Source of the DNA: Mobula hypostoma
Taxonomy: Eukaryota
Direction: 5' to 3'
DNA: 64,000 nucleotides
Assembly: GCF_963921235.1 (NCBI RefSeq)
Contig: NC_086108.1
Coordinates: 20,088,001 to 20,152,000 of the forward strand
This document shows positions 49,640-53,700 of the stretch, in pieces. The notes beneath the pieces were generated by a model. The model was not told where the DNA came from, made no database searches, and saw only the letters and a list, made by a program, of their open reading frames with translations. Each line of letters starts with the position of its first letter. The first letter of the stretch is position 1. The translations under genes were made by a program, and so were the position numbers.

Positions 49640-50756
49640 CCATAAGACGTAGGAGCAGGATCAGACCTTTCAGCCATCAAGTCTGCTTCACCATTTCATC
49701 ATCATTTCCTTCGCAACCCCATTCTTCTGCCTTCTCTCCATAACCTTTCATGCCCTGACTAAACAAAAACCTCTCAACCTCTGTCTTAAGTACACCCAGT
49801 GACCTGCCTTCCACTGCCAGCAGACTGGCAACAAATTTCACAGATTCACTACCCTCTGGTTAAAGAAATTACCCCATATTCCCATTCTAAATAGATGCCC
49901 TTCCATTCTGAGGCTATGCCCTGTGGTCCTAGCTTCTCTTCCCCCCCCCCCCCACCTCCTACATAGGAAACATCATTTCCACATCCACTGGGTTTCAATG
50001 AAATCCCCCCTTCATTCTTCACATCATACTCCCTGGAGTTCTTCACAATTCCAGGGAGTAAAGGCCCAGAGCCATCAAACATTCGTCAAAGCTGATTGTG
50101 CACTTCAGGAAGGGAAGATGAAGGAACACATATCAATCCTCATAAGAGGGATCAGAAGTAGAGAGAGTGAACAGTTTCAAGTTCTTGGGTGTCAAGATCT
50201 CTGAGGACCTAACCTGGTCCCAACATATCAATGCAGCTATAAAGAAGGCAAGGCAGCGTCTATACTTCATTAGGAGTTTGAGGAGATGGGTGGGGTGGGG
50301 GTGCTACTGCATAGGATGGAAAGAAGCTGCAGAGGGTCGTAAATGTAGTCAGCTCCATCTTGGGTACTAGCCTGTAAAGTACCCAGGACATCTTCAAGGA
50401 GCGGTGTTTCAGCAAAGGCAGCGCCCATTATTAAGGACCTCCAGTGCCCAGGTGTTGTAAGTGAGGAAACAGATTCGGTAGGTCTCAAAGGCACGGACTC
50501 TGGACACAGTCTTGGTAGTAAAGGATTTTATTTACAGAAGGCAAACGTGGGAAAATGACAACAGAAGCAACACGCACAAAATTTACAGCCGTCGTGGGAA
50601 AAGTCGGATCAGCAATAAAACACATGCGGACGATTAATAACGAACGTGGAAAATCACGTGGGAACAAAGAACACACACACATACATACAACCAAGGGAAA
50701 AGTCAATAAGATATCTGTCAAGGGGTGGCCGGTATCATATTTACTTTTCCTTTGGT

Positions 50757-50792
<36 letters not shown>

Positions 50793-53700
50793 CTTTGTTC
50801 CCATGCGATTTTCCCATGTTCATTATTAATTGTCCGCGTGTGTTTTACTGCCGATTCGACCTTTCTCATGACTGCTGTAAATTGTGCGTGTATACGTGTT
50901 ACTTCTGTTGCCATTTCCCCACGTTTACCTTCTGTAAATAAAATCCTTTCCTACCAAGACTGTGTGTCTAGAGTCCTTGCCTTTGAGACCTACCGACTCT
51001 GTTTCCTCACTTACAACAATTGGCGCTGCGAGCAGGGTAGTTCCTCGGAGATGGCAAAGAGAGCGAGTCCAGCACACATGGCACCCTTTTAGTGCAGGAG
51101 GGCTGGAAGGTCCAGCCCAGGTAAATCACAGGGCGCCAATGGCTCGGTGCCAGCGGAGTTAAGCTGATTACAAAGGCTAATTGCCCGAGGCCAAGTACAA
51201 GGCTAATTAAAGGAGGGGTCAAACCTTGATTGGCAGGTGGTGTGCCTTCCGACCAGGTAGTGGGCAGTGCTGTCACGTGTCAGTCACGACCCTCCAATAC
51301 ACCAGGACATTCCCTCTTCTCACTTACTATCAGGTACGAAGTACAGAAGCCTGAAGCCACACACTCAGCGATTCAGGAACAGCATCCTCTCCTCTGCCAT
51401 CTGATTTCTAAATGGACATTGAACCCGTGAACACTACCTCAGGTTTTTAAATATATATTATTTCTGTTTTTGCACTATTTTAATGTATTAAATATACATA
51501 TACTGTAGTTTATTTATTATCTTCTTCTATATTATGTATTGCATTAAACTGCCGCTGCTAAGTTAACAAATTTCATGATACATGCCAGTGATAACAAACC
51601 TGATTCTGATACAATAAGCCTTTTATTCCCGAAATTATTCTTGTGAACTCTTCTGAACCTTCTCCATTGACAGCACATCTTTTCTTAAATAAGGGTCCCG
51701 AAACTCTCACGGTACTCCAAGCAAGAGCTCACCAGTACCTTATAAAGTCTGAGCATTACAGCCATGTTTTTATGTTCTGGTCCTCGCAATGTTGGCATTC
51801 ATTTTGAATTTGTCTTCGTCACTACCGACTCAACTTGCAAATTAATCTTTAGGGAACCCTGCACAAAGACTCCCAAGTCCCTTTGCACCTAGGACTTTTG
51901 CCCATTCTACTAATCTGTAAGCCACTTCATTTAGAACCTTGGAGTGTTGTAGTCCATATGGTCTAGGTGACTTACCACCTTCAGACCTTTCAGCTTCCCC
52001 AGCACCTTCTCCCCGGTAATTGCAGTTGCACTCACTTCTGCCCCCTGGCATTTTTGAAAGTCTGGCATATGACAAGTATCTTCCACAGTAAAGATGGATG
52101 CAAAATACTTATTTAGTTTGCCATTTCCTTGTCCCCGTAACTACAGTACCTCTCCAGCATTGTTTTCCAGAGTTCCAATATCTACTCTTGACTCTTTATT
52201 GCTGTTTATATATCTGAAAAATCATTTGGTATTCTCTTTGGTATTCCTTCACATTTCTTTCCTTGTGATTTTTTAGTTTCCTTCTATTGGCTTGTAAAAG
52301 CTTCCCAATTTTCTGACTTCCCACTAATGTTTACTCTATTATATATCCTCTTTTGCTTTTATGTTGTTTTTAACTCCCCTTGTCAGTCATGGTTGCATTT
52401 TTAGAATACTTCCTGTTCTGTGGGATGCATCTGTCTTGTGCCTTCAAATTTGCTCCCAAAAACTCCAGCCATTGATGTTCTGCCATCATCCCTGCTAGTG
52501 TCCCCTTCCAATCAACTTTGGCCAGCTCTTCTCATGCCTCTATAATTCCCTTAACTCCACTGTAATTCTGATGCATCTGATTTTAACTTCTCTCACTCAC
52601 ATATATTGTGATCACAAACCTTAAGCTCTGTAATCAATTCTTGTTCGTTATATAACACTCAGTACAGAATAGCCTTTTCCCTGGTGGCCTCAACCACAAG
52701 CTGCTCTAAAAAGCCATCATCTAGGCAGTCTATAAATTCTGTCTCGGGACCCAGCACCTACCTGATATTTCCAATGTTGAAATTCCCATAACTTGTAACA
52801 TTTCCTTTTTGACATATGTATTCTATCTCCCTTTGTAATTTGTAGCCCACACTCTGGCTGCTTTTCAAAGATCTGTAAAAAACCTCTATCAGGATCTTTT
52901 TATTTTTGCATTTTCTTAACTCTACTCACAACGATTCTACATCTTACGATCCTGTCAATTTTACCAACAGAGCAACCCCACCCTCTCTGCTACCTGCCTG
53001 TTTTTTTCGATACAATACCCTTAGATGTTAAGCTCCCAGCTATGATTTTTTTTTCAGCCACGACTCAGAGGTGCCTTCAACGTCATACCTACCAATCTAC
53101 CTTATTTCGTACACTACCTGCATTCAGATATAACACATTCAGTCAGGCATTCGTCACCCTTTTCGATTTTGGCCCCATGTTACACGGCAACTCTTCCCAC
53201 TGACTGCAATTTTCTCTATTATCTGTCTGTCCTTCCTGACAGTCTCACTGCACATTGCATTTAGTTGTATACCAACTGCCCCATTCTCGGCCCTATCACT
53301 CTGATTCCCAACCCTCTGGCCATTTGGTTTAAACCCTCCCCAAAGGCTCTAGCAAACCTGCCAGCAAGGATGCTGGTCCCCCTCGGGATCTGTGTAACTC
53401 TTCCCTTTTGTACAGGTTCCCAATAAGAGATTCCAGATATCTGAACCCTTGCCGCCCTGCACCAGTTCTTCGGCCACTTTTTCATTTACCAACTCATTCT
53501 GTTCTTACCCTCACTGGTGCGTGGCACAGGCAGGAATCCAAAGATTACTACCCTGGAGGTCCTGCTTTTCAGCTTTCTACTTAACTCCCTAAATTCTCTC
53601 TCCAGGACCTCCTCCCTCTCTGTATCTTTGTCATGGGTCCCAATATGTACCTTTGGCTACTCACGACCCTCCTTCAGAATGCCATGGATCCGATCCGAGA

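What the first reader, a model, noticed from the sequence alone, without database searches (positions are those of the whole stretch)
50453..51301. Solo LTR carrying an inverted copy of its own 3' end fused to a tRNA-Ser-like 3' end: a candidate self-encoded primer
Seen: an 849-bp TG...CA unit with a 5-bp TSD. On the minus strand it reads promoter-like U3 (ccaat; ctaaaagg at ~51090), then accctgctcgcagcgCCA-at, then a ~290-nt inverted copy of the LTR end, a 5-nt loop, and the true LTR end with AATAAA. On the + strand the inner copy looks exactly like an LTR-PBS junction (...cttacaaca at TGGCGCTGCGAGCAGGGT). Knowledge: the 18-mer resembles the 3' end of vertebrate tRNA-Ser (UGA/CGA) as I recall it, and Tf1/sushi elements self-prime through a short 5' complement of the PBS. 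Inference: a primer plus minus-strand strong-stop copy was captured into R. In a full-length transcript the hairpin would place this tRNA mimic on the real PBS, which could allow self-priming or block the PBS against tRNA fragments. The arms differ by many scattered substitutions, so the structure is old or family-wide.
Basis: partly seen in the sequence, partly recalled or inferred. Interest (0 to 1): 0.8.

Follow-up and report, generated by a model that had tools for sequence, protein, structure and literature searches.

The report
Solo LTR with captured strong-stop hairpin
This is one old, single-copy retroviral LTR that froze a reverse-transcription accident into the genome: an inverted copy of its own R-U5 end plus the last 18 bases of the tRNA-Ser primer. 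It is a molecular fossil, not a working self-priming device.

Summary
Window 50453-51301 is an 849-bp TG...CA unit with a CCAGG target-site duplication, inserted into a copy of an abundant host repeat. It holds a ~270-bp inverted repeat around a 5-nt loop. It also holds an 18-mer identical to the 3' end (with CCA) of this genome's tRNA-Ser(CGA/UGA).

The family is retrovirus-like, with RT closest to gammaretroviral-type RTs and integrase closest to foamy-virus integrase. It makes 5-bp duplications. Its 5' LTRs are followed by AT plus this same 18-nt PBS.

Normal LTRs (about 620-730 bp) carry only one arm. In the window copy, 118 bp of the LTR are replaced by an inverted [R-U5 + AT + PBS]. That block joins the U3 side through 8 nt shared by the PBS end and the LTR.

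No other place in the 3.48-Gb assembly spans the junction or the palindrome centre. Contigs from a second species label do carry the junction at the same locus. The arms differ by 12%, as much as the two LTRs of a full-length copy.

Best reading: a one-off aberrant reverse transcription. Strong-stop DNA and the tRNA primer were copied, and a microhomology jump rescued the product.

The parts
50448..50452 (.). Left copy of the 5-bp target-site duplication, CCAGG.
   Evidence: Paralogues of the host repeat have a single CCAGG at this point (all 4 correctly oriented of 6 aligned).
50453..50720 (-). Arm A. This is the LTR's true 3' part (R-U5) read on the minus strand, and it ends ...CTTACAACA at 50453. 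It holds AATAAA at 50532-50527 (minus strand) and a short (CA)n run.
   Evidence: It aligns with the R-U5 part of normal LTR copies. Its tree end branch is 0.05. Antisense colinearity with normal copies runs to about 50716-50720.
50721..50725 (.). The 5-nt loop (AGGGG on the plus strand) at the palindrome centre. GTCA (50717-50720) faces TGGC (50726-50729).
   Evidence: On the plus strand the loop is colinear with the sense arm B, which runs uninterrupted from 50717.
50726..51018 (+). Arm B. This is an inverted extra copy of R-U5, sense on the plus strand, with an expanded (GT)n run and AATAAA at 50937-50942. It ends ...CTTACAACA at 51018.
   Evidence: Normal LTRs have no such second arm.
51019..51020 (+). 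The AT dinucleotide that separates U5 from the PBS in 5' LTRs of the family.
   Evidence: all 7 PBS-bearing LTR ends held have AT at this position.
51021..51038 (+). The 18-nt PBS, TGGCGCTGCGAGCAGGGT. Its complement on the minus strand is the 3' end of tRNA-Ser(CGA/UGA) including CCA.
   Evidence: 7 of 18 tRNA-Ser genes found give an exact 18/18 match once CCA is added, and 11 of 18 give 17/18. ARAGORN calls Ser(cga) or Ser(tga) in 4 of 4 loci scanned. L010 and L075 have the identical PBS after their 5' LTR.
51031..51038 (.). An 8-nt microhomology (AGCAGGGT / ACCCTGCT) shared by the far end of the PBS and the normal LTR. It marks the junction of the captured block with the U3 side.
   Evidence: 4 of 6 normal copies read ACCCTGCT here and 2 differ by one base; the partial matches covering query 1-54 and 47-101 overlap on exactly these 8 nt.
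51039..51301 (-). U3, plus whatever part of R lies upstream of the microhomology, read on the minus strand (TGTATTGG... at 51301). It holds CTAAAAGG at 51092-51085 and CCAAT at 51233-51229. It lacks 33 bp that 4 of 6 aligned copies have.
   Evidence: The promoter motifs are sequence matches only and no transcript data exist.
51302..51306 (.). Right copy of the target-site duplication, CCAGG.
   Evidence: Contigs of two runs of a second species label bridge this junction (records 23 and 30).

Best explanation
The unit is a solo LTR of an old retrovirus-like family that primes with tRNA-Ser. It records one faulty round of reverse transcription.

Read on the LTR's sense (window minus) strand, the order is: U3 and the first bases after the TATA-like box; then the last 18 nt of the tRNA primer; then AT; then the complement of U5 and most of R; then a 5-nt turn; then R-U5 again in sense. 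The middle block is, letter for letter, 'tRNA 3' end + minus-strand strong-stop DNA'.

Inferred path:
1. While R-U5 was being copied, about 150 nt short of the RNA's 5' end, strong-stop DNA itself became the template. This happened either by snap-back at a 3-of-4-nt pairing around a 5-nt loop, or by a switch onto the strong-stop DNA of the co-packaged RNA.
2. Synthesis ran back through R-U5 and the AT spacer into the tRNA primer, and stopped after 18 nt.
3. The new 3' end (AGCAGGGT) happened to complement ACCCUGCU near the start of R. It annealed there and synthesis went on into U3. This rescued a product that is normally a dead end and lost 118 bp of the LTR.
4. The DNA kept correct U3 and U5 tips, so integrase inserted it with a 5-bp duplication. 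LTR-LTR recombination later left the solo LTR.

It has since decayed neutrally and has no shown function.

Shown: the anatomy, the junctions, the tRNA identity, the uniqueness and the age. Inferred: the order of the steps and which strand folded.
For: (1) Normal LTRs have one arm. They carry 118 bp between the U3 part and the arm that the window copy lacks (layout).

(2) The inverted arm continues through AT into an 18-mer identical to the family PBS (exact in 2 of the 7 PBS-bearing ends among 37 LTR ends held). The 18-mer is also identical to the 3' end plus CCA of 7 of 18 tRNA-Ser genes found. So the arm comes from a 5'LTR-PBS or primer context, not from the solo LTR's own flank.

(3) Homology to the PBS side stops exactly at nt 18. 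The last 8 nt are shared with the LTR. This is what a strong stop in the tRNA followed by annealing of the free 3' end predicts.

(4) The arms meet within about 13 nt of the same LTR position, around a 5-nt loop.

(5) Uniqueness. No other place spans the element (40 of 286 candidates scored), the PBS/U3 junction (40 of 86 scored) or the centre (40 of 123 scored). A whole-assembly pattern scan of the junction with up to 3 mismatches hits only the window (1 hit, 0 in the control).

(6) Integration signature. The ends are TG...CA with a CCAGG duplication and an intact empty site in paralogues. Of 22 LTRs with both ends, 17 have flanks matching in at least 4 of 5 positions; one of those 17, L010, is a 5' LTR whose right flank is the PBS, so its match is chance.

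(7) Age and neutrality. The arms differ at 30 of 247 sites (K2P 0.135), against 0.125 for the two LTRs of one full-length copy. There are 18 differences private to each arm and no shared rare states. A second species label carries the unique junction (record 28: 3 differences in 166 nt) and the LTR/flank junction (records 23 and 30).

(8) Self-priming of strong-stop DNA is a documented in-vitro side reaction. Its products are called dead ends because their 3' ends do not match the acceptor (PMC6088434, section 5.1, passages read).
Against: - The tree is a star, with 2 of 49 inner branches well supported. The arms are not recovered as sisters: arm B pairs weakly with L033, although the AU test does not reject sisterhood (p 0.41). 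That the arms were identical at birth is therefore compatible with the data but not shown.
- The loop polarity does not fit the simplest path. On the plus strand, the arm next to the PBS reaches 9-13 nt further into R than the other arm. A snap-back of the very strand that then jumped into U3 predicts the opposite. This needs either an intermolecular copy of a second strong-stop DNA plus one later C>T change, or the hairpin acting as a substitute plus-strand strong-stop DNA. Later change at the palindrome centre is also possible.
- The microhomology hides whether 10 or 18 nt of the tRNA were copied.
- The transcription start, and so the R boundary, is unknown.
- No wet-lab precedent for an integrated product of this kind was found in my searches.
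Confidence: 0.75

Rival explanations
1. The rearrangement is a post-integration DNA event. A normal full-length provirus sat at this site. During host DNA replication or repair, two template switches occurred: one from the 3' LTR onto the opposite strand of the 5' LTR, and one from the PBS end back into the 5' LTR at the 8-nt microhomology. Together they deleted the interior and made the palindrome.
For: Both junctions show microhomology, 3-4 nt at the centre and 8 nt at the PBS, as replication-based rearrangements do. The end product would look the same, with intact duplications. The arm divergence would equally fit two LTRs of one provirus.
Against: - The first switch would have to land about 5-7 kb away, on the other strand, within about 13 nt of the same LTR coordinate.
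- The second switch would have to stop by chance within the last 8 nt of the 18-nt PBS. Reverse transcription has a programmed stop at that point.
- A local snap-back of the solo LTR would have copied the flank, not AT plus the PBS.
- Template switching is routine for reverse transcriptase and rare for host polymerases. This last point rests on established knowledge and was not tested here.
Confidence: 0.12
2. The hairpin is a functional module. It would give a self-encoded tRNA-like primer, or a mask that covers the PBS. Alternatively, it was exapted after its accidental origin as a promoter-driven long hairpin RNA that yields small RNAs against the R-U5 leader of the family.
For: The LTR keeps TATA-like and CCAAT motifs upstream of a 270-bp hairpin. 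The 18-mer would pair with a PBS by construction. The locus has been retained in two species labels.
Against: - It is a single copy in 3.48 Gb.
- As a solo LTR it has no PBS or genes to serve.
- The family uses an ordinary tRNA-Ser PBS.
- The arms have decayed as fast as unconstrained copies, with no sign of paired changes.
- Retention in two related genomes is what neutral DNA does.
Confidence: 0.05
3. A second family member inserted in the opposite orientation into an LTR, and two unrelated deletions followed.
For: Nested insertions are common in this genome. One example is a LINE-type RT inside the copy held as L028.
Against: - No inner target-site duplication is present.
- One deletion would have to end exactly at PBS nt 18.
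- The other deletion would have to create a near-perfect symmetry centre with a 5-nt loop.
- The outer unit still has a single clean TSD.
Confidence: 0.03

Closest known systems
Self-primed (fold-back) extension products of retroviral minus-strand strong-stop DNA, described for HIV-1 in cell-free reactions (review PMC6088434, section 5.1, passages read; Guo et al. 1997 seen only as a reference there).
   Same: Strong-stop DNA is used as its own template. This gives an R-U5 hairpin attached to the tRNA primer.
   Different: - Those products are made in vitro, arise at the cTAR hairpin at the very end of R, and are called dead ends.
- Here the turn lies about 150 nt inside the LTR's transcribed part.
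- Here the copy ran into the tRNA primer.
- Here an 8-nt match rescued the product, and it was integrated and fixed in a germ line.
tRNA sequences captured into retroviral DNA. Examples are a cloned MLV circle with a tRNA between the LTRs (Colicelli & Goff 1986) and hairpin-induced tRNA-mediated recombination in HIV-1 (Konstantinova et al. 2006). I saw both only as described in passages of PMC12220202. The papers themselves are not held.
   Same: Reverse transcriptase copied tRNA sequence into viral DNA by template switching, and in one case this was linked to a long hairpin.
   Different: - Those cases involve 60 nt or more of other tRNAs in laboratory infections.
- Here exactly the 18-nt primer end of the cognate tRNA-Ser is present.
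- Here it is still joined to strong-stop DNA through the natural AT spacer, inside an endogenous LTR.
Self-priming LTR retrotransposons of the Tf1/sushi type (mechanism recalled from general knowledge, not read here).
   Same: A stretch near the 5' end of the transcript would be complementary to the PBS.
   Different: - In Tf1 the complement is a family-wide feature, about 11 nt at the transcript's very start, and it replaces a tRNA primer.
- Here the family uses a tRNA-Ser PBS, normal LTRs lack the complement, and the single copy that has it is a solo LTR.
Ordinary solo LTRs of endogenous retroviruses.
   Same: TG...CA ends, a 5-bp duplication, a U3 with promoter-like motifs, an AATAAA signal, and homology to the LTRs that flank RT- and integrase-coding interiors.
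   Different: It is 849 bp against about 620-730 bp. It has an internal 270-bp palindrome and a PBS inside the LTR.

Membership tests
Solo LTR of a retrovirus-like (ERV) family | TG...CA termini and a target-site duplication of the family's length. | tested here: met
   TG is at 50453 and CA at 51301, with CCAGG on both sides. The empty site is intact in paralogues. Of 22 family LTRs with both ends, 17 have flanks matching in at least 4 of 5 positions; one of these, L010, is a chance match to its PBS.
Solo LTR of a retrovirus-like (ERV) family | Homology to LTR pairs that flank an interior coding for RT, RNase H and integrase. | tested here: met
   Two-LTR copies are L021, L030 and L033. Pfam finds RVT_1, RNase_H, RT_RNaseH_2, rve and Integrase_H2C2. 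The best solved relatives of the RT are chains named 'Reverse transcriptase/ribonuclease H p80' and 'Gag-Pol polyprotein' (E about 1e-29); that these are murine-leukaemia-type is my recollection. The best relative of the integrase is PFV integrase (E 1.6e-15).
Solo LTR of a retrovirus-like (ERV) family | A PBS complementary to a host tRNA 3' end lies next to the 5' LTR. | tested here: met
   Of 37 LTR ends held, 7 are followed by AT plus a PBS-like 18-mer, and 2 of those are exact. The match is to tRNA-Ser(CGA/UGA).
Solo LTR of a retrovirus-like (ERV) family | Active promoter, transcription start site and polyadenylation site. | not testable with these tools
   Only motifs are seen. No run on record as RNA holds the stretch.
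Integrated product of self-primed / template-switched strong-stop DNA | An inverted R-U5 joined to R-U5 at a short loop. | tested here: met
Integrated product of self-primed / template-switched strong-stop DNA | A copy of the primer tRNA's 3' end is joined to the inverted U5 through the natural spacer and ends at nt 18. | tested here: met
   The 18/18 match, the AT spacer and the end of homology at nt 18 are shown. How much of the 18 nt was really copied (10 to 18 nt) is hidden by the 8-nt microhomology.
Integrated product of self-primed / template-switched strong-stop DNA | The two arms were identical when formed. | tested here: inconclusive
   The phylogeny is a star. The arms are not recovered as sisters, but the AU test gives p 0.41. 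There are no shared rare states and 18 private differences in each arm.
Self-priming LTR retrotransposons (Tf1/sushi type) | A family-wide complement of the PBS at the transcript's 5' end, replacing a tRNA primer. | tested here: not met
   Normal LTR copies lack the complement. The family PBS matches tRNA-Ser.
Self-priming LTR retrotransposons (Tf1/sushi type) | RNase H cleavage that frees the self-primer. | not testable with these tools
   This needs biochemistry.

The most novel reading that the evidence does not exclude
After its accidental birth, the hairpin LTR was kept as a self-promoted long hairpin RNA gene. Transcription from its own U3 through the 270-bp inverted R-U5 would give double-stranded RNA, and small RNAs made from it could silence every transcript of this ERV family through the shared leader. 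On this reading a retroviral replication error became a host (or selfish) silencer. The locus is retained at the same site in two species labels.
Probability: 0.04. Interest if true: 0.75.

Novelty: new variant of a known kind. Interest (0 to 1): 0.4.

Why it matters
Fold-back extension of strong-stop DNA is known from test-tube reactions and is treated as a dead end that nucleocapsid protein suppresses.

This locus looks like a natural, germ-line-fixed record that such a product can form in vivo. It can copy the primer tRNA's last 18 nt and be rescued by as little as 8 nt of chance complementarity. It can still be integrated by integrase.

It gives a dated, sequence-level example for models of strand-transfer errors. 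It is also a search image: an LTR containing an inverted R-U5 plus PBS. That image could be used to look for more such fossils in other genomes.

It does not reveal a new priming mechanism.

Tried and rejected
- **Family-wide hairpin.** I searched the assembly with the whole unit, the PBS/U3 junction, the palindrome centre (one search was the same request and failed because the machine was busy) and a 32-nt junction pattern with up to 3 mismatches. Only the window itself spans these. Limits: 40 candidates were scored per DNA search, and the pattern scan would miss a copy more than about 10% diverged.
- **Arms as sisters.** The tree and the AU test do not decide this.
- **Excess of G>A changes as a sign of deamination.** When polarised, the counts are too small to say anything.
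- **Expression.** No RNA holder is listed. The four runs laid are contigs dominated by repeats, and they say nothing on transcription or a start site.
- **Interior of L021.** It is too decayed, giving only sub-threshold RVP and rve hits.
- **The long ORF of L028.** It is a nested LINE-type RT, not the family's own.
- **Earlier notes of this scan.** Nothing was shown, either by place or by words.
- **Literature.** Six full-text searches found no report of an endogenous LTR holding an inverted R-U5-PBS. Subscription journals are mostly not held, and the two key older papers could not be read, so I do not claim that no such report exists.
- **Assembly artefact.** I rejected this. The arms differ by 12%, the unit has a clean TSD, and contigs of other runs carry the junctions.
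Full report
**1. The observation**

TG starts at 50453 and CA ends at 51301. CCAGG stands at 50448-50452 and again at 51302-51306. I first mis-indexed by one base, so my queries ran from 50454 to 51302.

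The inverted repeat is real and far beyond chance:
- The repeat finder gives arm pairs from 50448/51023 inwards to 50671-50720 / 50726-50775, with 5 nt between the innermost arms.
- BLAST of the unit on the window gives 80% identity over 590 columns, E 2.5e-157, and no other copy in the 64 kb.
- The minus-strand RNA folds at -374.8 kcal/mol, against -144 +/- 6 for 100 shuffles.

The unit sits inside a copy of a very abundant interspersed repeat, which gave 3358 first-look candidates. I aligned six paralogues of that repeat. The four that were correctly oriented read straight through a single CCAGG, so the duplication is a true target-site duplication. The other two, L087 and L088, were in the opposite orientation and did not align.

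**2. The family**

The assembly that holds the window (3.48 Gb, 200 contigs) has many related LTRs. One search gave 129 matches, with 40 of 286 candidates scored.

In all of them, one and the same place matches both arms of the query on opposite strands. That means they have a single R-U5 arm. The U3 part lies about 120 bp upstream of it.

An alignment of six normal copies with the three pieces of the window copy shows the normal layout. It is U3 (about 300 bp), then 118 bp that the window copy lacks, then R-U5 (about 290 bp) ending in CTTACAACA.

Twenty-two LTRs with both ends measure mostly 620-730 bp. Seventeen of them have flanks matching in at least 4 of 5 positions. One of these, L010, is a 5' LTR, so its match is chance.

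Interiors between LTR pairs code for RT, RNase H and integrase (Pfam):
- The RT's best solved relatives are chains named 'Reverse transcriptase/ribonuclease H p80' and 'Gag-Pol polyprotein' (E about 1e-29). That these are murine-leukaemia-type is my recollection. Next come chains named 'Peptidase A9/Reverse transcriptase/RNase H' and 'Pr125Pol' (I recall these as foamy-virus enzymes), then Ty3.
- The integrase's best relative is PFV integrase (E 1.6e-15).

So this is a retrovirus-like endogenous family. All copies inspected are decayed. One long ORF, in L028, is a nested LINE-type RT.

**3. The 18-mer**

Of 37 distinct LTR ends held, 7 are followed by AT and a PBS-like 18-mer. Two of them, L010 and L075, are identical to the window's TGGCGCTGCGAGCAGGGT.

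A pattern built from the 18-mer found 18 tRNA genes in the assembly and none with the reversed control. ARAGORN calls tRNA-Ser(cga) or tRNA-Ser(tga) in 4 of 4 loci scanned.

Seven of the 18 genes end ...AACCCTGCTCGCAGCG. With CCA added, this equals the window's minus-strand 18-mer at 18 of 18 positions. The other 11 differ at one position.

**4. Anatomy of the window copy**

Read on the LTR sense (window minus) strand, the parts are:
- U3, with CCAAT and CTAAAAGG, then ...GAGGAACT.
- ACCCTGCT, then CGCAGCGCCA. Together these form the tRNA 18-mer.
- AT.
- The complement of U5 and R (arm B read backwards).
- A 5-nt turn.
- R-U5 in sense (arm A), ending in CA and the duplication.

Normal copies read ...GGGACC-ACCCTGCT-TCACTCC... 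at the first junction. So 8 nt are shared between the LTR and the far end of the tRNA/PBS sequence. ACCCTGCT is intact in 4 of 6 aligned copies and differs by one base in 2.

In one search the partial matches to the junction query cover positions 1-54 (10 places, LTR end plus PBS) or about 47-101 (29 places, U3 side). They overlap on just these 8 nt. Only the window spans the junction.

Beyond nt 18 the window follows the LTR, not the leader seen after the PBS in full-length copies.

At the centre, 29 normal copies read ...GTCAAGGGGTGGC(G/A)GGTATC.... On the window's plus strand the sense arm starts at GTCAAGGGG (50717). The antisense arm ends at about 50716-50720. GTCA (50717-50720) faces TGGC (50726-50729) across the loop AGGGG.

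**5. Uniqueness and age**

No other place in the assembly spans:
- the whole unit;
- the PBS/U3 junction (40 of 86 candidates scored);
- the palindrome centre (40 of 123 scored).

A whole-assembly scan for the 32-nt junction with up to 3 mismatches finds the window alone, with 0 hits in the control. A copy with both halves side by side should rank first among the candidates, so I take the structure as single-copy. The caveat is that a junction more than about 10% diverged could escape.

Outside the microsatellite the arms differ at 30 of 247 sites: 22 transitions, 8 transversions, 8 of CpG type, K2P 0.135. The median pairwise difference among 50 other arms is 11.3%. The two LTRs of one full-length copy (L021) give K2P 0.125.

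The tree is a star, with 2 of 49 inner branches well supported. Arm end branches are 0.05 and 0.076 against a family median of 0.059. The arms share no rare state, and each has 18 private differences. They are not recovered as sisters, but the AU test does not reject sisterhood (p 0.41). This is what two copies that started alike, at the time the family was active, would look like after neutral decay. It does not prove that they started identical.

Contigs from runs of a second species label carry the locus:
- Record 28 bridges the unique PBS/U3 junction (50999-51164, 3 differences in 166 nt).
- Records 23 and 30 bridge the right LTR/flank junction (6 differences in 148 nt and 8 in 208 nt).

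So the insertion, already in hairpin form, appears to predate the split of the two labelled species. It is not an assembly artefact.

**6. Mechanism**

[quoted passage not shown] Three things need explaining: an inverted second arm, an 18-nt tRNA copy, and a jump into the LTR with loss of 118 bp.

All three follow if strong-stop DNA was itself copied during reverse transcription. Synthesis runs back through R-U5 and the AT spacer and into the primer tRNA. It stops after 18 nt, as plus-strand strong-stop synthesis normally does (established knowledge). It is left with the 3' end AGCAGGGT.

Such self-primed products are described as dead ends because their 3' ends do not match the acceptor (PMC6088434, section 5.1, passages read). 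Here the end happens to complement ACCCUGCU near the start of the transcribed LTR. That would let synthesis resume into U3, skipping the 118 bp between this site and the turn. Correct U3 and U5 tips are restored, which explains integrase-type insertion with a 5-bp duplication. The solo state follows from LTR-LTR recombination, which is common in this family.

One detail does not fit the simplest version. The arm next to the PBS reaches 9-13 nt further into R than the other arm. If the strand that folded were the one that then jumped, the reverse would be expected. Three variants fit:
- (a) The nascent strong-stop DNA switched onto the strong-stop DNA of the co-packaged RNA at a 3-of-4-nt match. 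This needs one later C>T change at 50718.
- (b) The tRNA-linked hairpin formed by snap-back (TGAC pairing with GCCA around the loop CCCCT, which fits the present letters exactly). It then served as a substitute plus-strand strong-stop DNA, and the minus strand copied it before making the 8-nt jump.
- (c) The centre changed later, as long palindromes tend to do.

I cannot choose among these.

**7. Rivals**

A host-DNA rearrangement of a resident full-length provirus, with two template switches, would give the same sequence. It needs a switch over several kb onto the other strand that lands within about 13 nt of the same LTR position. It also needs a second stop within the last 8 nt of the PBS by chance. 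A purely local snap-back is excluded because arm B continues into AT plus the PBS, not into the flank. I give this rival 0.12.

A nested inverted insertion followed by two deletions lacks an inner duplication and needs two exact coincidences. I give it 0.03.

A functional self-primer, a PBS mask or a hairpin-RNA gene has no support. The structure is a single copy, it is a solo LTR, the family uses an ordinary tRNA PBS, and the arms decayed neutrally. I give these readings 0.05 together.

**8. Comparison with what is known, and verdict**

The closest known things are:
- the in-vitro self-primed strong-stop products;
- rare laboratory cases of tRNA sequence captured into retroviral DNA, which I saw only as described in PMC12220202 (the originals are not held);
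- by analogy only, Tf1-type self-priming, whose defining family-wide complement is absent here.

Six full-text searches turned up no endogenous LTR with an inverted R-U5-PBS inside it. The library lacks most subscription journals, so I do not claim priority.

The verdict is that this is a real, well-resolved and unusual structure. It is best read as a one-off fossil of aberrant reverse transcription. It is a new variant of a known kind, of moderate interest to retrovirologists, and not a new priming system.

Noticed in passing
window 50300-50452 and 51307-51440: The LTR sits in a copy of a very abundant interspersed repeat. That repeat gave 3358 first-look candidates in the assembly, and the scored copies are 90-93% identical.
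   Followed up: partly
window 50671-50689 versus 50756-50787: The LTR's internal dinucleotide microsatellite differs between the arms. It is a short interrupted (CA)n run in arm A and about 15 GT units in arm B. It also varies widely among family copies. This accounts for much of the 80% BLAST identity, against 88% identity outside it.
   Followed up: partly
window about 51210-51215 (U3): The window's U3 lacks 33 bp that 4 of 6 aligned normal copies carry (alignment columns 116-148). L004 has a larger gap in the same region.
   Followed up: no
G000:C36:59103745-59119164 (L007, L015, L016, L032, L058): Two LTR-AT-PBS junctions lie on the same strand about 15 kb apart, with a further short U5 fragment at L007 1242-1335. 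This may be a tandem or rearranged provirus array.
   Followed up: no
L028 1848-3236: A 463-aa open frame inside a family member is a LINE-type RT. Its best solved relatives are LINE-1 ORF2p (E 1e-19). It is therefore a nested insertion, not the family's pol.
   Followed up: partly
L034 (G000:C2:247572485-247575566): A tRNA-Ser(cga) gene is flanked by two tRNA-Ile(aat) genes within 1.1 kb, forming a small tRNA cluster. Many tRNA-Ser(tga) genes lie on small contigs (C116-C180).
   Followed up: no
L029 2768-3781 (minus strand): A 338-aa open frame full of C2H2 zinc fingers lies a few kb from a family LTR. It is probably a host zinc-finger gene or pseudogene.
   Followed up: no
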